Below are positions 13,791-64,000 of a DNA stretch of 64,000 nt, in pieces. The notes under the pieces are model-generated. The model was not told the origin of the DNA. It was given only the letters and a program-made list of their open reading frames with translations, and made no database searches. The translations under genes and the position numbers were made by a program. Position 1 is the stretch's first letter. Every line of letters begins with the position of its first letter. The DNA comes from the human T2T-CHM13v2.0 reference genome, Homo sapiens: NCBI RefSeq assembly GCF_009914755.1, contig NC_060944.1; one strand, 5' to 3'.

Positions 13791-14280
13791 GTTTCCACCA
13801 AAGGCCTCAAAGCGGTCCAAATATCCACTTACAGATTCTACGAAGAGTGTTTCAAAACTGCTCTATGAAAAGGTATGTTCAACTCTGTGAGTAGAATGCA
13901 AACATCACAAAGAGATTTCTGAGAATGCTTCTGTCTGGTTTTTATGTGAAGATATTCCCGTTTCCAGTGAAGGCCTCAAAGCCGTCCAAATATCCACCTG
14001 CAGATACTATGAAAAGAGTGTTTCAAAACTGCTCTATGAAAAGGTATGTTCAACTCTGTGAGTAGGATGCAAACATCACAAAGAGATTTCTGAGAATGCT
14101 TCTGTCTAGTTTTTATGTGAAGATATTCCCGTTTCCAATGAAGGCCTCAAAGCCATCCAAATATCCACCTGCAGATACTATGAAAAGAGTGTTTCAAAAC
14201 TGCTCTATGAAAAGGTATGTTCAACTCTGTGAGTTGAATGCAAACATCACAGAGAAGTTTCTGAGAATGCTTCTGTCTAG
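13791..14280 (-). repeat. Alpha satellite, B-type monomers including a single-monomer tandem duplication
   Basis: Consecutive monomers share GAGTAG, AAGAGATTTC and CCACCTGCAGATACTATG at 171-bp spacing; boxes are CpG-decayed (CCCGTTTCCAATGAAG). Confidence 0.88.
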
Positions 14281-14297
14281 TTTTTTTTTTTTTTTTT

Positions 14298-14382
14298 GGA
14301 ATGATAAACATTTTAATTTGAAAAGCAGGCATCTCTGCTGTTAAGCTTTCTTTTGATGGGTGGGGAGTGGGGGGCGTTGGAG
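14298..14382 (-). other. 3' transduced non-L1, non-satellite segment (~85 bp) of L1-A
   Basis: Lies between the L1 A-rich tail and a 17-nt poly(A), inside the TSDs. ATTAAA on the minus strand at 14312-14317, 14 nt before the poly(A). Confidence 0.85.
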
Positions 14383-14606
14383 TTTATTTATTTTTGTTAT
14401 TATTATACTTCAAGTTTTAGTGTACATGTTCACAATGTGCAGGTTAGTTACGTATGTATACATGTGCCATGCTGGTGTGCTGCACCCACTAACTCGTCCT
14501 CTAGCATTAGGTATATCTCCCAATGCCATCCTTCTCCCCTCCCCCCACCCCACAACAGTCCCCAGAGTGTGATGTTCCACTTCCTGTGTCCATGTGATCT
14601 CATTGT

Positions 14607-18423
<3,817 letters not shown>

Positions 18424-18486
18424 TATGATGTTAGCTAGTTATCTTGCTCGTTAATTGATGCAGTTTCTTCCTAGTCTCAATGGTCT

Positions 18487-19498
18487 TTACATTTTGGCAT
18501 GATTTTGCAGTGGCTGGTACTGGTTGTTCCTTTCCATGTTTAGTGCTTCCTTCAGGAGCTTTTTTAGGGCAGGCCTGGTGGTGACAAAATCTCTCAGCAT
18601 TTGCTTTTCTGTGAAGTATTTTATTTATCCTTCACTTAGGAAGCTTAGTTTGGCTGGATATGAAATTCTGGGTTGAAAATTCTTTTCTTTAAGGATGTTG
18701 AATATTGGCCCCCACTCTCTTCTGGCTTGTGGGGTTTCTGCCAAGAGATCCACTGTTAGTCTGATGGGCCTCCCTTTGAGGGTAACCCAACCTTTCTCTC
18801 TGGCTGCCCTTAACATTTTTTCCTTCATTTCAACTTTGCGGAATCTGACAATTATGTGTCTTGGAGTTGCTCTTCTCGAGTATCTTTGTGGTGTTCTCTG
18901 TATTTCCTGAATCTGAATGTTGGCCTGCCTTGTTAGATTGGGGAAGTTCTCCTGGATAATATCCTGCAGAGTGTTCCAACTTGGTTCCATTCTCCCCATC
19001 ATTTTCAGATACACCAAACAGATGTAGATTTGGTCTTTTCACATAGTCCCGTATTTCCTGGAGGATTTGCTCATTTCTTTTTATTCTTTTTTCTCTAAAC
19101 TTCCCTTCTCACTTCATTTCATTCATTTCATCTTCCATCGCTGATACCCTTTCTTCCAGTTGATTCCATTGTCTCCTGAGGCTTCTGCATTCTTCACGTA
19201 GTTCTCGGGCCTTGGTAATCAGCTCCATGAGCTCCCTTAAGCACTTCTCTGTATTGGTTATTCTAGTTATACATTCTTCTAAATTTTTTTCAAAGTTTTC
19301 AACTTCTTTGCCTTTGGTTTGAATGTCCTCCCATAGCTTGGAGTAATTTGATCGTCTGAAGGCTTCTTCTCTCAGCTTGTGAAAGTCATTCTCCATCCAG
19401 CTTTGTTCCATTGCTGGTGAGGAACTGCATTCCTTTGGAGGAGGAGAGGTGCTCTGCTTTTTAGAGTTTCCAGTTTTTCTGCTCTTTTTTTCCCCCAT
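18487..19498 (-). pseudogene. L1 ORF1 (p40 RNA-binding protein), disrupted
   Basis: MGEKKSRKTGNSK... N-terminus with a premature stop at 19109-19111; later fragments include PRHIIVRF, ARREWG and YPAKLS. Confidence 0.96.
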
Positions 19499-20405
19499 CT
19501 TTGTGGTTTTATCTACTTTTGATCATTGAGGATGGTGAAGTACAGATGGGTTTTTGGTGTGGATGTCCTTTCTGTTTGTTAGTTTTCCTTCTAACAGACA
19601 GGGCCCTCAGCTGCAGGTCTGTTGGCGTACCTGGTCGTGTGAGGTGTCAGTCTGCCCCTGCTGGGGGTTGCCACCCAGTTAGGAGGCTCGTGTGTCAGGG
19701 GTCAGGGACCCACTTGAGGAGGCAGTCTGCCCGTTCTCAGATTTCCAGCTGCGTGCTGGGAGAACCACTGCTCTCTTCAAAGCTGTCAGACAGAGACATT
19801 TAAGTCTGCAGAGGTTACTGCTGTCTTTTTGTTTGTCTGTGCCCTGTCCCCAGAGGTGGAGCCTACAGAGGCAGGCAGGCCTCCTTGAGCTGCGGTGGGC
19901 TCCACCCTCTTCGAGCTTCCCAGCTGCTTTGTTTACCTAAGCAAGCCTGGGCAATGGGGGGCGCCCTTCCCCCAGCCTCGCTGCCGCCTTGCAGTTTGAT
20001 CTCAGACTACTGTGCTAGCAATCAGTGAGATCCGTGGGGGTAGGACCCTCCGAGCCAGGTGCGGGATACAATCTCCTGGTGCATGGTTTTTTAAGCCCGT
20101 CAGAAAAGCGCAGTATTAGGGTGGGAGTGACCCGATTTTCCAAGTGCCGTCTGTCACACATTTCTTTGACTAGGAAAGGTAACTCCCTGACCCCTTGTAC
20201 TTCCCGAATGAGGCAATGCCTCGCCCTGATTCGGCTCACACAGGGTGCATGCACCCACTGACCTGCGCCCACTGTCTGGCACTCCCTAGTGAGATGAACA
20301 CAGTACCTCAGATGAAAATGCACAAATAACCTGACTTCTGCATCATTCATGCTGGGAGCAGTACACTGGAGCTATTCCTATTTGGCAAACTTGGCTCCTC
20401 CCCCC
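19499..20405 (-). promoter_or_regulatory. L1-A 5'UTR (internal sense promoter; antisense promoter would fire rightwards)
   Basis: ~907-bp GC-rich L1 5'UTR. The YY1 motif CAAGATGGCCG is mutated to CAAGTTTGCCA. Promoter activity is inferred from family knowledge only. Confidence 0.8.
19954..20028 (+). pseudogene. L1 ORF0 remnant (antisense ORF), truncated at codon 25
   Basis: ATG at 19954 gives MGGALPPASLPPCSLISDYCASNQ*. The downstream SVGVGPSEPG... part appears in a shifted frame (ORF track 20025..20261). Confidence 0.75.
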
Positions 20406-23400
20406 AGGTGCTTCTGACAAGTATTTATGGGAAGATATTCCCATTTCCAACGAAGGCCTCAAAGCAGTCCAAATGTCAACTTGCAGATTCTACCAAAAAT
20501 GTGTTTCAATACTGGGCTATAAAAAGATAAGTTCAACTTCATGAGTTCAATGAAAACATCACAAAGAAGTTTCTGAGAATGCTTTTGTCTAGTTTTTAAG
20601 TGAAGATATATCATTTCCACCATAGCTCTCCAAATGTCCAGTTGCAGATTCCACAAAAAGAGTGTTTCAAAACGGCTCTATCAAAAGAAAGGTTCAGCTC
20701 TGTGAGTTGAATGCACACATCACAAAGACGTTTCTGAGAATGCTTCTATCTAGTTTTTATGTGAAGATATTCCCGTTTCCAATGAAGGCCTCAAAGCAGT
20801 AAAAATATCCATATGGAGATACTACGAAAAGAGTGTTTCAAAACTGCTCTATGAAAAGGTATGTTGAACTCTGTGAGTTGAATGCAAACATAACAAAGAA
20901 GTTTCTGAGAATGCTTCTGTCTGGTTTTTATGTGAAGATATTTCCTTTTCCACCATAGGCCTCAAAGGTCTCCAAATGTCGACTTGCAGATTCTACAAAG
21001 AGAGTGTTTCAAACTGCTCTATCAAAAGAAATGTTCAACTCAATGAGTTGAATGGACACATCACAAAGAAGTTTCTGAGAATGCTTCTGTCTACTTTTTA
21101 TGTGAAGATATTCCAATTTCCAAGGAAGGCCTAAAAGCAGTCCAAATATCGAATTGCAGAGTCTATGAAAAAAGTGTTTCAAAACTGCTCCATTAAAATA
21201 TGTTCAACTGTGTGAGTTGAATGCAAATATCAGAAAGCAGTTTCTGAGAATGCTTCTGTCTGGTTTTTATGTGAAGATATTCCTTGTCCACGATAGGCCT
21301 CAAAACTTTCCAAATGTCCACATGCAGATTCTACAAAAAGAGTGTTTCTAAACTGCTCTATGAAGAGAAAGGTTCAACTCTGTGAGTTGAATGCACACAT
21401 CAAAAAGAAGTTTCTGAGAATGCTTCTGTCTAGTTTTTATGTGAAGATATTCCCGTTTCCAACGAAGGCCTCAAAGCAGTCAAAATAGCCACTGGCAGAT
21501 TTTACGAAAAGAGTGTTTCAAAACTGCTCTATAAAAAGGTATGTTCAACTCTGTGAGTTGAATGCAAACATCCCAAAGAAGTTTCTGAGAATGCTTCGGT
21601 CCGGTTTTTATGTGAAGATATTTCCTTTTCCACCATAGGCCTGAAAGCTTTCCAAATGTTCACTTGCAGATTCTACAAAAAGAGTGTTTCAAAACGGCTG
21701 TATCAAAATAAAGGTTCCACCCTGTGAGTTGAATGCACACATCACAAATAAGTTTCTGAGAATGCTTCTGTCTAGTTTTTATGTGAAGATATTCCCGTTT
21801 CCAAAGAAGGCTTCAAAGCAGTCGAAATATCTACTTGCATATTCTACGAAAAGAGGGTTTCAAAACTGCTCTAAGAAAAGGTATGTTCAACTCTCTGAGT
21901 TGAATGCAAACACCACAAATAAGTTTCTGGGAATGCTTCTGTCTACTTTTTATGTGAAGATACTTCCTTTTCCTCCATAGGGCTCAAAGCTCTCCAAATA
22001 TCCACTTGCAGATTCTACAAAATGACTGTTTCAAAACTGCTCTATCAGAAGAAAGGTTCAACACTGCGAGTTGAATGCACACATCAAAAAGAAGTTTCTG
22101 AGGATGATTCTGTCTAGTTTTTATGTGAAGATATTCCTGATTCCAAGGAAGGCCTCAAATCAGTACAAATATCCACTTGCAGATTCTACGAAAAGTGTTT
22201 CAAAACTGCTCCATGAAAAGGTGTGTTCAACTCTGTGAGTTGAATGCAAACATCAGAAAGAAGTTTCTGAGAATGCCTCTGTCTGGTTTTCATGTGAAGA
22301 TATTCCTTTTCCACCATAGGCCTCTAAGCTCTCCCAATGTTCACTTGCAAATTTTATGAAAAGTGTGTTTCAAAACTGATCTAAGAAAAGATATGTTCAA
22401 CTTTGTGTGTTGAATGCAAGCATCACAAAGAAGTTTCAGAGAATGCTTCTGTCTATTTTTTATGTGAAGATATTTCCTTTTCCACCATAGGCCTCAAAGA
22501 TCTGAAATGTCCACTTGAACATTCTTCAAAAAGAGTGTTTCCAAACTGCTCTATCAAAAGAAAGGTTCAACTGAGTCAGGTGAATGCCCGCATCATGAAG
22601 GAGTTTCTGAGAATTCTTCTGTCTGATTTTTATGTGAAGATATTCCCATTTCCAATGAAGGCCTTCAAAGTAGTCCAAATATCCACTTGCAGATTCTACG
22701 AAAAGAGTGTTTCGAAACTGCTCTATAAACAGGTATGTTCAACTCTGTGAGTTGGATGCAAGCATCACAAAAAACTTTCTGAGAATGCTTCTGTCTAGTT
22801 TTTATGTGAAGATATTTCCTTTTCCACCATAGGCCTCAAAGCTCTCCAACTGTCCACTTGCAGATTCTACCAAAGAGTGTATCAAAACAGGCTCTATCAA
22901 AACAAAGGTTGAACTCTGATAGTTGAATGCACACATCAGAAAGAAGTTTATGAGAATGCTTCTATCTTCTTTTTATGTGAAGATATTCTTGTTTCCAACG
23001 AAGGCCTCAAACAGTCCAAATATCCACTTGCAGATTCTACGAAAAGAGTGTTTCAAAACTGCTCTATAAAAAAGCTATGTTCAACTCTGTGAGTTGCTTG
23101 CAAACATCACAAAGAAGTTTCTGAGAATGCTTCTCTCCAGTGTTTATGTGAAGATAATTCCTTTTCCAACATGGGCCTCAAAGTTCTCAAAATGTCCACT
23201 TGCAGATTCTAAAAAGAGAGTGTTTCAAAACTGCTCTATCAAAGAAAGGTTCAACTCTGTGAGTTGAATGTACACATCACAAAGAATTTTCTGAGAATGC
23301 TTCTGTCTACTTTCTATATGAAAATATTCCCTTTTCCAATGAAGGCCTCAAAGCAGTCCTAATTTCCTCTTGCAGATTCTACGAAAAGAGTGTTTCAAAA

Positions 23401-24149
23401 CCGCTCTAAGAAAAGGTATGTTCAAAACTGTGAGTTGAATGCAAACATCATAAAGAAGTTTCTGAGAATACTTCTGTCTAAATTTTATGTGAAGGTATTT
23501 CCTTTTCCACCATGGGCCTCAACGCTCTCCGAATGTCGGCTTGCAGATTCTACAAAAAGTGTTTCAAAACTGCTCTATCAAAATAAAGATTCAACTCTGT
23601 GAGTTGAATGCACACATCAAAAAGAGGTTTCTGAGAATACTTCTGTTTAGTTTTTATGTGAAGATATTCATGTTTCCAAAGTAGGCCTCAAAGCGCTCCA
23701 AATATCCACTTGTAGATTCTATGAAAAGAATGTTTCAAGAGTTCTCTATGAAAAAGGCTTGTTCAACTCTGTGAGTTGAATGTAAACATCACAAATAAGT
23801 TTCTGAGAATGCTTCTGTCCAGTTTTTATGTGAAGATATTTCTTTTTACACCATAGCCCTCAAAGCTCTCCAAATGTCGACTTGCAGATTCTACAAAAAT
23901 AGTGTTTCAAACTGCTCTATCAAAAGAAAAGTTCAACTCTGTCAGTTGAATGGAAACATCAAAAATAAGTTTCTGAGAATGCTTCTGTCTAGCTTTTATG
24001 TGAAGATATGCCCGTTTCCAAGGAAGGGTTCAAATCAGTACAAATATCCTCTTGCAGATTCTACGAACAGAGTGTTTCAAAACTGCTCCATGAAAAGGTA
24101 TGTTCAACACGGTGAGTTGAATGCAAACATCACAAAGATGTTTCTGAGA
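20406..24149 (-). repeat. Alpha satellite, alternating A (pJalpha) and B (CENP-B box) monomers, SF5 R1/R2-like
   Basis: Alternation of TTTCCTTTTCCACCATAGG and TTCCCGTTTCCAACGAAGG box types with irregular AA runs; same orientation as the left flank. Confidence 0.92.
21451..21467 (-). promoter_or_regulatory. CENP-B box (first perfect copy in the window)
   Basis: TCCCGTTTCCAACGAAG is the reverse complement of CTTCGTTGGAAACGGGA. Further perfect copies start at e.g. 26042, 27576, 28601, 41196, 45456, 47333, 48056, 49244, 50953, 53002, 53855, 55050, 55563, 55904, 57100, 58973, 60674 and 61015. Confidence 0.95.
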
Positions 24150-24152
24150 GGG

Positions 24153-24461
<309 letters not shown>

Positions 24462-27400
24462 GATGTTTCTGAGAATGCTTCTGTCTGGTTTTTATGTGAA
24501 GATATTCCTTTTCCACCATAGGCCTCAAAGCTCTCTAAATGTTCATTTGCAGTTCCTACAAAAAGAGTGTTTCAAAACTACTCTATGAACAGGTATATTC
24601 AACTCTTTGACTTGAATGCAGACATCACAAAGACGTTTGTGAGAATGCTTCTGTCTAGTTTTTATGTGAAGATATTTCCTTTTGCAACATTGGACTCAAA
24701 GCTCTCCCAATGTCCACTTGCAGATTTTGCGAAAAGTGTGTTTTAAAACTGCTCTAAGAAAAGGTGTGTTCACCTCTGTGAGTTGAATGCAAACATCACA
24801 AAGAAGTTTCTGAGAATTCTTCGGTCTAGTATTTTTGTGAAGATATTCCCGTTTGCAACGAAGGCATCAAAGAAGTACAAATATCCACCTGTAGATTCTA
24901 CGAAAAGAGTGTTTCAAAACTGCTCTATCAAGAGGTATGTTCAACTCTTTGAGTTGAATGCAAACATCACAAAGAAGTTTCTGAGAATGCTTCTGTTGAG
25001 GTTTTATGTGAAGATATCTCCCTTTCATCCATAGGCCTCAAATCTCTCCAAATGTCCACTTGCAAATTCTACAAAAAAAGTGTTTCAAAACTGCTCTATC
25101 AAAAGAAGGGTTCAACTCTGTGAGTTGAATGCACACATCACAAAGAAGTTTCTGAGAATGCTTCTGTCTAGCTTTTATGTGAAAATATTCCCATTTCCAA
25201 TGAAGGCCTCATAGCAGTCAAAATATCCACTTGCAGATTCTACGAAAAGAGTGTTTCAAAACTGCTCTATGAAAAGGTATGCTCAACTCTGTGAGTTGAA
25301 TACAAACATTACAAAGAAGTTTATGAGAATGCCTCTGTCTAGTTTTTATGTGAAGATATTTCCTTTTCAACCATAGGACACAAAGAACCCAAATGTCCAC
25401 TTGCAGATACTACAAATAAAGTGTTTCAAAACTGCTCTATCAAAACAAAGGTTCAACTCTGTGAGTTGAATGCACACATCACGAAGTAGTTTCTGAGAAT
25501 GTTTCTGTCTAATTTTTATGTTAAAATATTTCCTTTTCTACCATAGGCCTAAAAGCGCACCAAATATCCACTTGCAGATTCTACAAAAACAGTGTTTCAA
25601 AACTGATCTATGAACAGTTATGTTCAAATCTGTGAGTTGAATCCTAACATCACAAAGAAGTTTCTGAGAATTCTTTTGTCTACTTTTTAGGTGAAGATAT
25701 TTCTTTTTCCACCGTAGGCCTCAAAGCTCTCCAAATGTCCAATTGCAGATTCTACGAAAAGAGAGTTTCAAAACTGCTCCATGAAAAGCTATGTTTAATT
25801 CTGTGAGTTGAATGCAAACATCACAAAGAAGTTTCTGAGAATGCTTCTGTCTGGTTTTTATGTGAAGATAATTTCTTTTCCACCAGAGGCCTCAAAGCTC
25901 TCCAAATGTCCACTTGCAGATTCTACAAAGGAGTGATTCAAAACTGCTCTATGAATAGAAAGGTGTACGTCTGTGAGTTGAATGCACACACCACTTAGAA
26001 GTTTCTGAGAATACTTCTGTCTAGTTTTATTGTGACCATATTCCCGTTTCCAACGAAGGCCTCAAAGCAGTCCAAATATCCACTTGCAGATTCTACGAAA
26101 GAGTTTTTCAAAACTGCTCTATAAACAGGTATGTTCAACTCTGTGAGTTGAATACAAACATGGCAAAGACGTTTCTGAGAATGCTTCTGACTAGTTTTTT
26201 TTGTGAAGATATTTCTTTTCCACCGTAGGCCTCAAAGGTCTCAAAATGTCCACTTGCAGATTCTTCAAAAAGAGTGTCTCAAAACTGCTCTATCAAAAGA
26301 AAGCTTAAAGACTGTGAGTTGAATGCACACATTACAAGATGTTTCTGAGAATGCTTCTGTCTAGTTTTTATGGGAAGATATTCCCATTTCCAATGAGTGC
26401 CTTAAAGCAGTCAAAATATCCACTTGCAGATTCTACGAAAAGAGTGTTTCAAAACTGCTCTATGAAAAGGTATGTTCAACTCTGTGAGTTGCATGCAAAC
26501 ATCACAAAGAAGTTTCTGAGAACGCTTCCGTCTGGTTTTTATGTGAAATAATTCCTTTACCACCATAGACCTCAAAGCTCTCCAAATGTCAACTTGCAGA
26601 TTCTACAAAAAGAGTGTTTCAAAACAGCTCTATCAAAAGTAAGGTGTAAGTCTGTGAGTTGAATGTACACACCACAAAAATGTTTCTGAGAATGCTTCTG
26701 TCTATTTTTTATGTGAAGATATTCCCGTTTCCAATGAAGACCTCAAAGCAGTCCAAATATTCACTTGCAGATTCTACGAAGGAGTGTTTCAAAACAGCTC
26801 TATGAAAAGCTATGTTCAACTCTGTGAGTTGAATGCAAACATCACAAAGAAGTTTCTGAGAATGCTTTGGACGAGTTTTCTTGTGAAGATATTTCCTTTT
26901 CCACCGTAGGCCTAAAAGCACTCCAAATCTCCACTTGCAGATTCTTCGAAAAGAGTGTTTAAAAACTGCTCTATGAAGAGCTATGTTCAACACTGTGACT
27001 TGAATGCAAACATCACAAAGAAGTTTCGGAGAATCCGTCTGTCTAGTTTTTATGTGAATATATATCCTTTTGTACCATAGGCCTCAAAGCTCTCCAAATG
27101 TCCACTTGCAGATTCGACAAAAAGAGTGTTTCAAAACTGCTCTATCAAAAGAAAGTTTCAAGTGTGTGAGTTGAATGCACACATCCCAAGGAAGTTTCTG
27201 AGAATGCTTCTGTCTAGCTTTTATGGGAAGATATTCCCATTTCCAACGAAGGCCTCAAAGGAGGCCACATATCCACTTGCAGATTCTATGAAAACAGAGT
27301 TTCATATCTGATATATGAAAAGGTATGCTCAACTCTGTGAGTTCAATGCAAACATCACAAGAAGTTTCTGAGAATGTTTATGTCTGTTTTTTATGTGAAG

Positions 27401-29377
27401 ATATTTCCTTTTCCAACATAGGCCTAAAAGCTTTCCAAATGTCCACTTGCAGATTTTACAAAGAGAGTGTTTCAAAACTGCTCCAGGAAAAGAAAGGTTT
27501 CACTCTGTGAGTTAAATGTACACATCACAAAGAAGTTTCTGAGAACGATTCTGTCTAGTTTTTATGTGAAGATATTCCCGTTTCCAACGAAGGCCTCAAA
27601 GCAGTCCAAATATCCATTTGCAGATTCTACCAAAAAAGAGCATATCAAAACTGTTCTATGAAAAGGTATTTTCAACTCCGTGCATTGAATGCAAACATCA
27701 CAAAGAAGTTTTTGGGAATTCTTCTGTCTGGACTTTATGTGAAGGTATTTCCTTTTCCACCATAGCAATCAAACTTTCCAAATGTCTACTTGCAGATTCT
27801 TCGATAAGAGGGTCTCAAAACTGCTCTCTGAAAAGGTATGTTGAACTCTATGTGTTGAATGCAAACATCACAGAGAAGTTTCTGAGAATGCTTCTCTGTA
27901 GTTTTTATGTGAAGATATTTCGTTTTCCACCATAGGCCTCAAAGCTCCCCAAATGTCCACTTGCAGATTCTTCAAAAAGTGTGTTTCAAAACTGCTCTAT
28001 CAAAAGAAAGGTTCAACTCTGTGAGTTGCATGCACACATCACGATGAAGTTTCTGAAAATGTTTCTCTCTAGTATTTATGTGAAGAAATTTCCTTTTCCA
28101 CCATAGGCCTCAAATCTCTCCGAATGTCCACTTGCAGATTCGACAAAAGAGAGTTTCAAAGCTACTCTATCGAAAGAAAGGTTCAGGTCTGTGAGTTGAA
28201 TGCACACATCACAATGAAGTTTCTGGTAATGCTTCTGTCTAGTTTTAATGGGAAGATATTCCCATTTCCAACGAAGGCCTCAAAGCATTCCAAATATCTA
28301 CTTGCAGATTCTACGAAAAGAGTGTTTCAAAACTGATCTATTCAAAGGTATGTTCAACTCTGTGAGTTGAATGCAAACATCACAAAGAAGATTCTGAAAA
28401 TGCTTCTGTCTGCTTTTTATGTAAAGATATTTCCTTTCCCACCATAAGCCTAATAGCTTTCCAAATGTCCACTTGCAGATTTTACAAAAGAGTGTTTCAA
28501 AACTGCACTATGAAAAGAAAGGTTCAATTCTGTGAGTTGAAAGCACACATCACAGAGAAGTTTCTGGGAAAGATTCTGTCTAATTTTTATGTGAAGATAT
28601 TCCCGTTTCCAACGAAGGCCTCAAAGCAGTCCAAATGTCCACTGGCAGATTGTATGAAAAAAGTGTTTCAAAACTGCTTTTAGAAAAGGTATGTTCAACT
28701 CCTTGAGTTGAATGCAAACATCACAAAGTAGATTCTGAGAATGCTTCTGTCTGGTTTTTATGTTAAGATATTTCCTTTTCCACCATAGGCCTCAAAGCTC
28801 TCCAAATGTTCACTTGCAGATTCTTCAGAAAGAGTGTTTCAAAACTGCTCTATCAAAAGAAAGGTTCAAGTCTGTGAGTTCAATGCACACATCACGAAGT
28901 AGTTTCTGAGAATGCTTCTGTCTAGTTTTTATGTGAGGATATTCCCATTTCCAATGACGGCCTCAAAGCAGTCCAAATATCTACTTGCATATTTTAGGAA
29001 AAGATTGTTTCAGAACTCCTCTATGCACAGGTATGTTCAACCCTGTGAGTTGAATGCAAACATCACTAAGTAGTTTCTGAGAATGCTTCTGACTGGTTTT
29101 TATGTGAAGATATTTTCTTTTCCACCATTGGCCTTAAAGCTCTCCTAATGTCCACTTCCAGATTCTACAAAAATCGTGTTTCAAAACTGTCGTATCAAAA
29201 GAAAGGTTCAGCTCTGTGAGTTGAATGCACACATCAAATAGAAGTTTCTGAGAACGCTTTTGTCTAATTTTTATGTGAAGATATTCCCGTTTCCATCGAA
29301 GGCCTCAAAGCAGTCCAAATATCCTCTTGCAGATTCTACGAAAAGAGTGCTTCAAAGCTGCTCTAAGAAACGTTATG
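24462..29377 (-). repeat. Alpha satellite, alternating A/B monomers, SF5-like
   Basis: Continuation of the A/B array; core-intact CENP-B boxes at 24847, 26042, 27576, 28601 and 29285. Confidence 0.92.
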
Positions 29378-30283
29378 GGGAGGAGGAGCCAAGATGGCCG
29401 AATAGGAACAGCTCCGTTCTACAGCTCCCAGCGTGAGCGACGCAGAAGATGGTTGATTTCTGAATTTCCCTCCGAGGTACGTGTTCATCGCACTAGGAAG
29501 TGCCAGTCAGTGCACGCAGGTCTGTGGGTGCACGCACCGTGCGTGAACCGATGCAAGGCGAGGCATTGCCTCACTCGGGAAGTGTAAGGTGTCAGGGAGT
29601 TCCCTTTCCTAGTCAAAGAAAGAGATGACAGACAGCACCTGGAAAATCGGGTCACTCCCACCATAATACTGCACTTTTCTGACGGGCTTAAAAAACCATG
29701 CACCAGGAGATTGTATCCCGCACCTGGCTCGGAGGGTCCCACCCCCACGGATCTCACTGATTGCTAGCACAGTAGTCTGAGATCAAACTGCAAGGTGGCA
29801 GCGAGGCTGGGGGAAGGGCACCCCCCATTGCCCAGGCTTGCTTAGGTAAACAAAGCAGCCGGGAAGCTCGAAGAGGGTGGAGCCCACCGCAGCTCAAGGA
29901 GGCCTGCCTGCCTCTGTAGGCTCCACCTCTGGGGGCAGGGAACAGACAAACAAAAAGACAGCAGTAACCTCTGCAGACTTAAATGTCCCTGTCTGACAGC
30001 TTTGAAGAGAGCAGTGGTTCTCCCAGCTTGCAGCTGGAAATCTGAGAACGGGCAGACTGCCTCCTCAAGTGGGTCCCTGACCCCTGACACACGAGCCTCC
30101 TAACTGGGTGGCACCCCCCAGCAGGGGCAGACTGACACCTCACACGACCAGGTACGCCAACAGACCTGCAGCTGAGGGCCCTGTCTGTTAGAAGGAAAAC
30201 TAACAAACAGAAAGGACATCCACACCAAAAACCCATCTGTACTTCACCATCCTCAATGATCAAAAGTAGATAAAACCACAAAG
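29378..30283 (+). promoter_or_regulatory. L1-B 5'UTR (YY1 motif intact; antisense promoter would fire leftwards)
   Basis: CAAGATGGCCG at 29390-29400; CpG-containing ~906-bp UTR upstream of the ORF1 ATG at 30284. Confidence 0.8.
29754..29828 (-). pseudogene. L1 ORF0 remnant, truncated by the same stop as in L1-A
   Basis: CAT at 29826-29828 and the same ...AAT CAG TGA premature stop; SVGVGPSEPG remnant in ORF track 29485..29757. Confidence 0.75.
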
Positions 30284-31295
30284 ATGGGGGAAAAAAAGAG
30301 CAGAAAAACTGGAAACTCTAAAAAGCAGAGCACCTCTCCTCCTCCAAAGGAATGCAGTTCCTCACCAGCAATGGAACAAAGCTGGATGGAGAATGACTTT
30401 CACAAGCTGAGAGAAGAAGCCTTCAGACGATCAAATTACTCCAAGCTATGGGAGGACATTCAAACCAAAGGCAAAGAAGTTGAAAACTTTGGAAAAATTT
30501 AGAAGAATGTATAACTAGAATAACCAATACAGAGAAGTGCTTTAAGGAGCTGATGGAGATGAAAACCAAAGCTCGAGAACTACGTGAAGAATGCAGAGGC
30601 CTCAGGAGCCCAAGCGATCAACTGGAAGAAGGGGTATCAGCAATGGAAGATGAAATGAATGAAATGTAGGGAGAAGGGAAGTTTAGAGAAAAAAGAATAA
30701 AAAGAAACGAGCAAAGCCTCCAAGAAATATGAGACTATGTGAAGAGACCAAATCTACGTCTGATTGGTGTATCTGAAAGTGACGGGGAGAATGGAACCAA
30801 GTTGGAAAACACTCTGCAGGATATTATCCAGAAGAACTTCCCCAATCTAACAAGGCAGCCAACATTCAGATTCAGGAAATACAGAGAACACCGAAAAGAT
30901 ACTCGGGAAGAGCAATTCCAAGACACATTATTGTCAGGTTCACCAAAGGTGAAATGGAAGAAAAAATGTTAAGGGCAGCCAGAGAGAAAGGTTGGGTTAC
31001 CCTCAAAGGGAGGCCCATCAGACTAACAGTGGATCTCTTGGCAGAAACCCCACAAGCCAGAAGAGAGTGGGGGCCAATATTCAACATTCTTAAAGAAAAG
31101 AATTTTCAACCCAGAATTTCATATCCAGCCAAACTAAGCTTCATAAGTGAAGGAGAAATAAAATAGTTTATAGACAAGCTAATGCTGAGAGATTTTGTCA
31201 CCACCAGGCCTGTCCTAAAACAGCTCCAGAAGGAAGCACTAAACATGGAAAGGAACAACCGGTACCAGCCACTGCAAAATCATGCCAAAATGTAA
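30284..31295 (+). pseudogene. L1 ORF1, disrupted
   Basis: MGEKKSRKTG... frameshifted at ~30495; later fragments KRPNLRLIGV, ARREWGPIF and YPAKLSFISEGEIK*. Confidence 0.96.
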
Positions 31296-31358
31296 AGACC
31301 ATTGACACTAGGAAGAAACTGCATCAACTAACGAGCAAAATAACCAGCTAACATCATC

Positions 31359-35173
<3,815 letters not shown>

Positions 35174-35409
35174 ACAATGAAAACACATAGACACAGGAAG
35201 GAGAACATCACACTCTGGGGACTGTTTTGGGGGGGGAGGGGGGAGGGATGGCATCGGGAGATATACCTAATGCTAGATGAAGAGATAGTGGGTGCAGTGC
35301 ACAAGCAAGGCACATGTATACATTTGTAATTAACTGGCAAATTGTTCACATGTATCCTAAAAATTAAGAATAATAATTAAAAAAACAAAAACTAGAAAAA
35401 AAAAGAAAA

Positions 35410-35610
35410 TAATATAGACGAAGACAGAACAAAGACATAAAGGGAAATGGAGTCTTGACAAGATTTGAATCCATGTCTGAATTCAACATTACTGCGAAAA
35501 CTTTGCTGCTACTTTACAATCAATTCTTTTCTGATGTAAATGAGTTCAAGTTGGATTTTTTGTCTCTTTCAACAAATAGGCCTAATATATAAATAAAGAA
35601 CATTTTAATT
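35410..35610 (+). other. 3' transduced unique-looking segment (~200 bp) of L1-B
   Basis: Non-L1, non-alphoid sequence between the L1 tail and a second A-tract (35611-35621); AATAAA at 35592-35597; inside the TSDs. Confidence 0.87.
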
Positions 35611-35621
35611 AAAAAAAAGAA

Positions 35622-37667
<2,046 letters not shown>

Positions 37668-61600: not shown

Positions 61601-62146
61601 GCTCTATCAAAAGAAAGGTTCAACTCCGTGAGTTGAATGCACACATCACAAAGAAGTTTCTGAGAATACTTCTGCCTAGATTTTATGTGAAGATATTCCC
61701 ATTTCCAACGAAGACCCCAAAGCAGTCCAAATATCCACTTGCAGATTCTACGAAAAGAGTGATTCAAAACTGCTCTATGAAAATTTGTTTTCAACACTGT
61801 GAGTTGAATGCAAACATCACAAAGAAGTTTCTGAGAATGCTTCTGTCTGGTTTTGATGTGAAAATATTTCTTTTTCCACCAAAAACCTCAAAGCTTTCCA
61901 AATGTCCACTTGCAGCTTCTACAAAAAGAGTGTTTCAAAACTGCTCTAACAGAAGAAAGGTTTAACTCTGTGAGTGAAATGCACACATCGCAAAGAAGTT
62001 TCGGGAAATGCTTCTGTCCAGTTTTTACGTGAAGATATTTCCTTATCCACTGTAGGCCACAAAGATCTCCAAATGTGCAGTTGCAGATTTTACCAAAAGA
62101 GTTTTTGAAAACTGCTCTATCAAAAGAAAGTTTCAACTCCGTGAAT
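37668..62146 (-). repeat. Alpha satellite, alternating A/B monomers, SF5-like, with internal block duplications
   Basis: ~24.5 kb uninterrupted array; about 22 core-intact CENP-B boxes counted by eye, others decayed at CpG (CCCAT…, …CAATGAA). Confidence 0.93.
47753..47832. repeat. 40-bp out-of-register tandem duplication within a monomer
   Basis: CTATGAACAGGTATGTTCAACTCTGTGAGTTGAATG(C/A)AAA at 47753-47792 and 47793-47832. Confidence 0.93.
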
Positions 62147-64000
62147 TTAACATATCTATTCTTAGAGCAGTTTTGAAACAACCTTTTCGTAGAATCTGCA
62201 ATTGGATATTTGGACTACTTTGAGGGCTTCGTTGGAAACGGGAATATCTGACCATAAAATCTAGACAGAAGCATTCTCAGAAACTTCTCTGTGATGTGTG
62301 CATTCAACTCACAGAGTTGAACCTTTCTTTTGATAGAGCAGTTTTGAACCACTCTTTTTGTAGAATCTGCAAGTGTACATTTGGAGAGCTTTGAGGCCTA
62401 TGGAGGAAAAGGAAATATATTCACATAAAAACCAGACAGAAGCATTCTCAGAAACTTCTTTGTTATGTTTGCATTCAACTCACAGAGTTGAACATACCTT
62501 TTCATACAACAGTTTTGGAACACTGTTTTCGTAGTATCTGCAAGTGAATATTTGGACTGCTTTGAGGCCTTCGTTGGAAACGGGAATATCTGCACATAAA
62601 ATCTAGACAGAAGCATTCTCAGAAACTTCTTTGTGATGTGTGCACTCAACTCACAGAGTTGAACACTACTTTTGATAAAGCAGTTTTGAAAAGCACTTTT
62701 TGTAGTATCTGTATGTGGACAATTGGAGAGCTTTGAAGCCTATGGTGCAAAAAGAAATATATTCACATAAAAACTAGACAGAAGCATTCTCAGAAACTTC
62801 TTTGTGATGTTTGCTTTCAACTCACAGAGTTGAACATTCTTTTTCTTAGAGCAGTTTTGTATCACTCTTTTCGTAGAATCTGCAAGTGGATATCTGGACT
62901 GCTTTGAGGTCTTCTTTTGAAACGGGAATATCTTCACAAATAAGCTAGACAGAAGCCTTCTCAGAAACGTCTTTGTGATGTGTACATTCAACTCACACAG
63001 TTGAAGCTTTCCTTTGCTAGAGTAGTTTTCAAACCCTCTTTTTTTAGAATCTGCAAGTGGATATTTGGAGAGCTTTGAGTCCTGCAGTGGAAAAGTGAAT
63101 ATCTTCACATAAAAACTAGACAGAAGCATTCTCAGAAACTTATTTTTGTTGTTTGCATTCAGCTGGCAGAATTGAACATACCTGTTCATAGTACAGTACT
63201 GAAACACTCTTTTCATTGAATCTGCAAGTGGATATTTGGATTGCTTTGAAGCATGCTTTGGAAACGGGAATATCTTCACATAGAAACTAGACAGAGGCAT
63301 TCTCATAAACTTATTTGGGATGAGTGCATTCAACTCACAGAGTGGAACCTTTCTTTTGATAGTGCAGTCACTGTTTTTGTAGAATCTGTAATTGGACATA
63401 TGGAAAGCTCTGTGGCCTATGGTGGAAAAGGAAATATCTTCACATAAAAACCAGACAGAAGCATTCTCACAAACTTCTTTGTGATGTTTGCATTCAAATC
63501 ACGGGGTTGAACCTAACTTTTTATACAGCTGTTTTGAAACACTCTTTTCGTAGAATCTGCAATTGTTTATTTGGACTACTTTGAGGCCATCGTTGGAAAC
63601 GGGAATATCTGACCATAAAATCTAGACAGAAGCATTCTCAGGAAATTCCTTGTGATGTGTGCATTCCACTCACAGAGTTAAACATTTCTTTTGATTGAGC
63701 ACTTTTGAAACAGTCTTTTTGTAGAATCTGCAATTGAACATTTGTAGTGTTTTGAGGCCTATGGTCGAAAACGAAATATCTTCACATAAAAACCAGACAG
63801 AAGGATTCTCACAAACATTTTGTGATGTTTGCATTCAACTAACAGAGTTGAACGTACCTGCTCATAGAGCAGTTCTGAAACCTTGTTTTCGTAGAATCTG
63901 CAACTGGATACTTGGACTGCTTTGAGGCCTTCATTGGAAATGGGAATATCTTCACATAAAATGTAGGCAGAAGCATTCTCTGAAACTTCTTTGTGTTTTT
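62147..64000 (+). repeat. Alpha satellite, A/B monomers in inverted orientation
   Basis: Reverse-complement motifs (GAAGCATTCTCAGAAACTT); CENP-B boxes now on the plus strand, CTTCGTTGGAAACGGGA at 62227-62243 and 62569-62585. Confidence 0.96.

What the first reader, a model, noticed from the sequence alone, without database searches (positions are those of the whole stretch)
19241..20106. ~860-bp recent conversion tract covering the antisense promoter, ORF0 and ORF1 start
19241-20106 and 29676-30540 differ at only about a dozen positions by eye and share many private variants (AAAAAACCATGCACCAGG, CTCGAAGAGGGTGG, GACACACGAGCCTCC, TACTTCACCATCCTCAATGATC, the ORF0 stop, and MGEKKS…FHKLREEAF…SKLWED). 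The first ~300 bp of the two elements are far more divergent from each other. The boundary is sharp.
Basis: partly seen in the sequence, partly recalled or inferred. Interest (0 to 1): 0.7.

Follow-up and report, generated by a model that had tools for sequence, protein, structure and literature searches.

The report
Gene conversion between two neighbouring L1s
Two dead jumping-gene copies that landed separately, 9 kb apart and facing away from each other near the centromere of human chromosome 20, share an almost identical 900-base stretch, likely because DNA repair copied it from one into the other; this is a clear but ordinary case of a known process, with no sign of a function.

Summary
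Two full-length L1s (A 14387-20405, minus; B 29378-35389, plus; L1PA3-like, inferred) lie head-to-head in monomeric alpha satellite. They differ at 11 of 828 sites in the tract and 322 of 4826 downstream (p 4e-12). In the tract they share 42 derived bases, 23 absent from all 19 outgroup L1s. They are separate insertions: each keeps its own target-site duplication and carries a 3' transduction from a different chromosome (chr4, chr13). The spacer is not inverted. Best reading: non-crossover ectopic gene conversion, 0.72-0.90 kb. It may be two nested events: all 11 differences fall in the 5' half and a 377-bp core has none (p 0.014-0.04). The tract is about 13% (5-28%) of the insertions' age, roughly 1-1.6 My on a recalled L1PA3 age. 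B is the likelier donor, on thin evidence. The functional framing is not supported: ORF0 and ORF1 are broken in both copies, and what was copied is decayed sequence. Conversion between L1PA3 copies is already in print. I found no report of this locus (10 searches, one inversion table).

The parts
14387..20405 (-). L1 copy A, full length, 6019 bp, L1PA3-like (inferred); ORF0, ORF1 and ORF2 broken; YY1 site at +13-21 mutated
29378..35389 (+). L1 copy B, full length, 6012 bp, L1PA3-like (inferred); ORF0, ORF1 and ORF2 broken; YY1 site at +13-21 intact
19239..20142 (-). Homogenised tract in A (maximum-likelihood edges; minimum 19362-20085)
29640..30542 (+). Homogenised tract in B (maximum-likelihood edges; minimum 29697-30420)
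19291..19667 (-). Core with no A-B difference (377 aligned bases, 21 shared derived bases); possible younger nested event
30115..30491 (+). Same core in B
18695..18822 (-). Candidate second short tract in ORF1 (128 bp identical, 5 shared derived bases, 2 absent from all outgroups)
30960..31087 (+). Partner of the candidate second tract in B
20143..20405 (-). Unconverted, mutation-rich 5' head of A
29378..29639 (+). Unconverted, mutation-rich 5' head of B
14268..14285 (+). Target-site duplication of A, left copy (15 of 18 bases match 20409-20426)
20409..20426 (+). Target-site duplication of A, right copy
29365..29377 (+). Target-site duplication of B, left copy (12 of 13 bases match 35622-35634)
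35622..35634 (+). Target-site duplication of B, right copy
14297..14388 (-). 3' transduction of A; only other match G000:C4:171905239-171905330 (92%); no L1 at that site
35405..35611 (+). 3' transduction of B; only other match G000:C13:80800534-80800740 (94%); no L1 at that site
20409..29377 (+). 9-kb alpha-satellite spacer in the same orientation as both flanks, with an Alu at 24150-24458
19954..20028 (+). ORF0 remnant of A (24 codons, then stop); identical remnant in B at 29754-29828 on minus

Best explanation
Two separately inserted, inverted L1 copies 9 kb apart share a 0.7-0.9 kb near-identical stretch, likely because a break in one copy was repaired using the other as template (ectopic gene conversion without net crossover), possibly twice and likely within the last few million years. 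Shown: independent insertion (own target-site duplications, different transduction sources), no net inversion of the spacer, homogenised tract with many shared rare bases, dead reading frames. Inferred: homologous repair on the same or sister chromatid as the mechanism; an older event of 0.8-0.9 kb followed by a younger one of at least 377 bp inside it, the first giving the perfect homology that favours the second; B as donor (about 2:1); older short conversions elsewhere along the arms; selective neutrality.
For: 11/828 against 322/4826 differences. 42 shared derived bases, 23 absent from 19 outgroups, plus a shared 1-bp deletion absent from all 19. On the tract tree A and B form a pair with 100% support, terminal branches about 0.004 and stem 0.033; outside the tract their terminal branches are 0.033 and 0.038. 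Best other match 94%. Target-site duplications pair within each element and the alpha satellite keeps one orientation. Transductions from chr4 and chr13. Residual differences are CpG-enriched (5 of 11; CpG columns are 61 of 828; p 7e-4), as expected for decay after conversion. Tract length lies within quoted human ranges (passages of PMC3961182; bioRxiv 10.1101/135152). Donor hint: at A19482/B30300 the tract carries G, found in 6 of 7 outgroups that share B's base at B32899 and in 0 of 16 that share A's base there.
Against: Only one haplotype of one species was seen; no ape orthologue or second human assembly could be checked. Nesting is only moderately supported (scan-corrected p 0.014, or 0.024-0.040 with CpG weighting). 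The donor call rests on one or two markers; A has the older base at 8 of the 13 diagnostic sites outside the tract that I inspected, and the mutation-spectrum test was uninformative (log likelihood ratio 0.46). An even number of inversions would leave the same junctions. The 19 outgroups were picked as best matches to the tract, so they are not a random sample.
Confidence: 0.82

Rival explanations
1. Inversion and re-inversion: crossovers between the inverted L1s flipped the 10-kb middle and flipped it back, each leaving a conversion patch, which would give the older and the younger layer.
For: The geometry is that of L1-mediated inversions: an L1PA3 pair flanks the 20.8-kb inversion HsInv0341, and an inversion with conversion between inverted L1PA7s is described. 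Two apparent layers.
Against: Needs two crossovers. The present orientation is ancestral. None of the 9 chr20 rows of Table S1 of PMC10150506 lies at 29.77-29.80 Mb, though power in pericentromeric satellite is probably low.
Confidence: 0.1
2. Assembly or polishing artefact: reads from one copy overwrote the other.
For: A 377-bp perfect core in a repetitive region; no reads or second assembly could be examined.
Against: The tract holds 11 differences with a CpG-decay signature. The arms are 93% identical and flanked by distinct sequence, so long reads should place uniquely (inference).
Confidence: 0.04
3. Shared descent or a third donor: both copies got this stretch from one chimeric source lineage, or from a third L1 or L1 cDNA.
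For: A and B also share 12 rare non-CpG bases outside the tract, against about 2.2 expected from parallel mutation, and they group at 93% outside the tract.
Against: Different transduction sources. No third copy above 94% among 40 scored. Two such outside variants occur at 42 and 30 genomic places with no third element common to both lists. Of 19 alignable carriers of one variant, none has the linked base at B34640 and 2 have the one at B34424. The 3.4% shared non-CpG change in the tract equals a full post-insertion load at this locus.
Confidence: 0.02
4. Selection keeps the antisense promoters, ORF0 or the ORF1 start alike in both copies.
For: The tract overlaps these features; both antisense promoters would point into the spacer (antisense start near position 400).
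Against: Similarity comes from shared derived changes, not conservation: the tract is 6.3-6.7% from outgroups, against 3.4% among them. ORF0 stops after 24 codons and ORF1 after 129 (A) and 72 (B) codons. CpG counts (16 and 13) are below all 19 outgroups (18-27). No gene is annotated in the window.
Confidence: 0.02

Closest known systems
Gene conversion between L1PA3 LINEs (Frith and Khan 2018, PMC5829575, Fig. 4S; passages seen)
   Same: Replacement of a tract of one L1PA3 by a copy of a nearby one
   Different: Their case was seen in reads of one cell line against the reference; this one is inferred from one assembly, between inverted full-length copies in alpha satellite, and appears layered
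Inversions mediated by inverted L1 pairs, such as HsInv0341 (Aguado et al. 2014, PMC3961182; passages seen)
   Same: Inverted L1PA3 pair about 20 kb in span, a substrate for homologous exchange
   Different: No net inversion here and none catalogued at this place
Non-allelic gene conversion among transposon copies (Fawcett and Innan 2019, PMC6598467; passages seen) and duplicates (Harpak et al., bioRxiv 10.1101/135152; abstract and passages)
   Same: Rate reported higher for Alu copies under 10 kb apart; mean tract 250 bp (interval 63-1000)
   Different: This tract is at the long end, and the template had likely already diverged by about 5-6%
Arm-to-arm conversion in Y and X palindromes (recalled, not retrieved)
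   Same: Inverted arms with a spacer exchanging sequence
   Different: The arms here are two independent insertions, 93% identical, with only local homogenisation

Membership tests
Non-allelic gene conversion | Local tract far more alike than the rest of the two paralogues | tested here: met
Non-allelic gene conversion | Derived bases shared by the pair and absent from outgroups, concentrated in the tract | tested here: met
   23 in 833 columns against 14 in 5190; trees
Non-allelic gene conversion | Flanks not exchanged (no net crossover) | tested here: met
   an even number of inversions is not excluded
Non-allelic gene conversion | One-way transfer with an identified donor | tested here: inconclusive
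   one lineage marker favours B; spectrum test neutral
Non-allelic gene conversion | Unconverted ancestral state seen in another haplotype or species | not testable with these tools
   no ape or second human assembly; both source L1s are absent from their loci
L1PA3 (short 5' UTR form) or early L1PA2 | Full length near 6.02 kb, lacking the 129-bp ZNF93 segment | tested here: met
   5' UTR of B is 906 bases and both align without a long gap to 19 copies of 6.03 kb; the deletion is described
L1PA3 (short 5' UTR form) or early L1PA2 | Subfamily call against Dfam or RepBase models | not testable with these tools
   no repeat library held; both group with the longer-branched outgroup set; which set is older is inferred
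L1-mediated polymorphic inversion | Spacer inverted in some haplotypes | tested here: inconclusive
   not inverted in this assembly; not in Table S1 of PMC10150506
Palindromic segmental duplication | Arms arise by duplication and share flanks | tested here: not met
   homology ends at the L1 ends; different transductions and target sites
Functional ORF0 or ORF1 locus | Intact reading frames | tested here: not met

The most novel reading that the evidence does not exclude
The pair is a self-reinforcing recombination hotspot inside pericentromeric alpha satellite: each conversion restores perfect homology that seeds the next, and the two layers are the scars of a flip and a flip-back of the 10-kb spacer, which would still toggle in people today.
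Probability: 0.1. Interest if true: 0.5.

Novelty: new member of a known kind. Interest (0 to 1): 0.25.

Why it matters
It is a well-controlled example that homologous repair acts between L1 copies about 6% diverged inside pericentromeric satellite, where meiotic crossing-over is thought rare (recalled). It warns that dating satellite layers or L1s from a 5' UTR can mislead. It also marks a 377-bp perfect inverted homology as a candidate breakpoint for a 10-kb inversion. No gene or working element is affected.

Tried and rejected
Source elements as ancestral proxies: both transduction source loci lack an L1. A segmental-duplication paralogue as outgroup: none among 40 scored hits, and each transduction has only one other match. 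Donor by mutation spectrum: uninformative. Donor by CpG retention: the tract lies between A's head (6) and B's head (16), so no call. A recalled PRDM9 13-mer pattern: no match in either tract. Net inversion: rejected. A shared sub-lineage behind the shared bases outside the tract: no third linked carrier. The third L1 in the window as a control for local parallel mutation shares 0 rare bases with A and 1 with B over 1626 columns, where A and B share 5. A chr6 inverted L1 pair that shares one rare doublet is 93.9% identical with no clear tract. Searches were translated in the wrong frame and replaced by 37 and 38. One search, a bacterial promoter scan, is irrelevant. A source for the L1PA3 age was not found. 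One of 20 full-length outgroups (L046) was dropped because its alignment was split.

Full report
Setting. The window is monomeric alpha satellite interrupted by three L1s and an Alu. Self-comparison shows one long inverted match, 14387-20405 against 35389-29378, 92.9% over 6034 columns. These are two full-length L1s, A on minus and B on plus, with 5' ends facing a 9-kb spacer. Both lack the 129-bp segment whose loss arose in L1PA3 in the great-ape ancestor (passages of PMC7110667 and PMC5860796). They group with the longer-branched set of outgroups. I call them L1PA3-like; no repeat library was available to confirm this.

The observation. Global alignment shows a block with 0-3 differences per 100 columns between neighbours with 15-20 on the left and 15, 8 and 5 on the right. 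I aligned A and B with 19 of 20 full-length L1s fetched from the best genomic matches to the tract (one dropped for a split alignment). The tract has 11 differences in 828 sites, the downstream part 322 in 4826, the head 48 in 286. The contrast survives removal of CpG sites (6/767 against 288/4727) and a permutation scan (0 of 5000). The region is not slow in general: in 209 unrelated pairs it is on average slightly more diverged than the rest (median ratio 1.15, minimum 0.61; A-B 0.20). Two null measures are less clear-cut: the best-window ratio is 0.207 against a null minimum of 0.225, and the longest identical run is 377 against a null maximum of 401 in a pair half as diverged. The decisive signal is sharing of derived bases: 42 in the tract, 23 of them in no outgroup, plus a shared 1-bp deletion. 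Edges are A 20142-19239 / B 29640-30542 by maximum likelihood and at least A 20085-19362 / B 29697-30420.

Independent origin, no inversion. Each element has its own target-site duplication (15/18 and 12/13 matches). The satellite runs the same way in both flanks and the spacer. A carries about 90 bp from chr4 and B about 210 bp from chr13 behind their 3' ends, each with a single other match; neither source site now holds an L1. The copies therefore did not arise from one another, and a single crossover in the tract, which would have swapped the spacer-side junctions, did not occur. No scored copy elsewhere exceeds 94% to the tract (40 scored of 5212 candidates).

Layers and age. All 11 differences lie in the 5' 451 sites; the next 377 have none. 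Corrected for scanning this has p 0.014, or 0.024-0.040 with CpG weighting: suggestive of a second, younger event, not proof. With the elements' own non-CpG divergence as clock, the whole tract is 0.13 (0.05-0.28) of the insertion age, the 5' half 0.24 (0.09-0.52) and the core under 0.14. On a recalled age of 8-13 My (no source retrieved) this is about 1-1.6 My overall, so probably after the human-chimpanzee split, assuming a constant local rate. A and B carry about 2.8-3.1% private non-CpG change against 0.6-1.6% in outgroups, in line with the 1.1- to 4.1-fold higher pericentromeric rates reported in PMC11062924 (passages).

Donor. At A19482/B30300 both copies have G. Among outgroups with B's base at B32899, 6 of 7 have G; among those with A's base, 0 of 16 do (5 of the 10 extra copies fetched lacked a usable 5' part). 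That points to B as donor, provided A's base is inherited and not a private change. A has the older base at most other diagnostic sites, and the spectrum test was neutral. I put B at about 2:1.

Other exchange. Outside the tract A and B share 12 rare non-CpG bases against about 2.2 expected; the maximum among 171 outgroup pairs is 3. The clearest cluster is a 128-bp identical run in ORF1, whose best other matches are 98%. Tests for a common sub-lineage found no third linked carrier. Older short conversions are the likely cause; this is inferred.

Function. ORF0 starts at element position 452 and stops after 24 codons in both copies; 6 of 19 outgroups have the same stop. ORF1 stops after 129 codons in A and 72 in B. 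The longest stop-free stretch in either element is 239 codons. The tract has fewer CpGs than any outgroup and a shared change at about position 449, at the edge of the putative YY1 site next to the antisense start described in PMC4908685 (passages). What was copied is decayed sequence, so the overlap with promoter features is most likely incidental.

Comparison with what is known. Conversion between L1PA3 copies, and inversion with conversion between inverted L1PA7s, are shown in PMC5829575 (passages). An inverted L1PA3 pair mediates HsInv0341 (PMC3961182, passages). Conversion is reported to be more frequent between Alu copies under 10 kb apart (PMC6598467, passages), with a mean human tract of 250 bp (bioRxiv 10.1101/135152, abstract and passages). 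Ten full-text searches gave no listing that describes this locus, judged from titles and abstract starts. Table S1 of PMC10150506 lists no inversion here among 9 chr20 rows. PMC12350158 (passages) added nothing specific. Verdict: real, well supported, a new instance of a known process, probably neutral. Interest 0.25.

Noticed in passing
window 20119-20405 and 29378-29663: Both 5' heads carry about 2.3 times the private non-CpG change of their own bodies (34 against 15 expected, p 2e-5; outgroup ratio mean 1.09, range 0.23-2.76). Target-site duplications and transductions are also heavily mutated. A higher rate next to satellite junctions is possible; unexplained.
   Followed up: partly
window 62131-62151: Alpha satellite switches strand here: an inversion junction within the array, with no L1 at the break.
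   Followed up: no
window 24150-24458: Young Alu with a 16-bp target-site duplication in the spacer; its 7-bp internal duplication suggests AluYb8 (label recalled), so it may be human-specific or polymorphic.
   Followed up: no
window 35952-37667: Third L1, 5'-truncated with an internal inversion (twin-priming form), less mutated (1.5% private) than A and B.
   Followed up: partly
L032 (G000:C13:80.80 Mb) and L034 (G000:C4:171.91 Mb): Source loci of the two transductions; both lack an L1 in this assembly, so the source elements were probably never fixed.
   Followed up: partly
L075 and L076 (G000:C6:63.461-63.478 Mb): Another inverted L1 pair 14.5 kb apart sharing one rare two-base variant; 93.9% identical over 1.2 kb, no clear tract.
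   Followed up: partly
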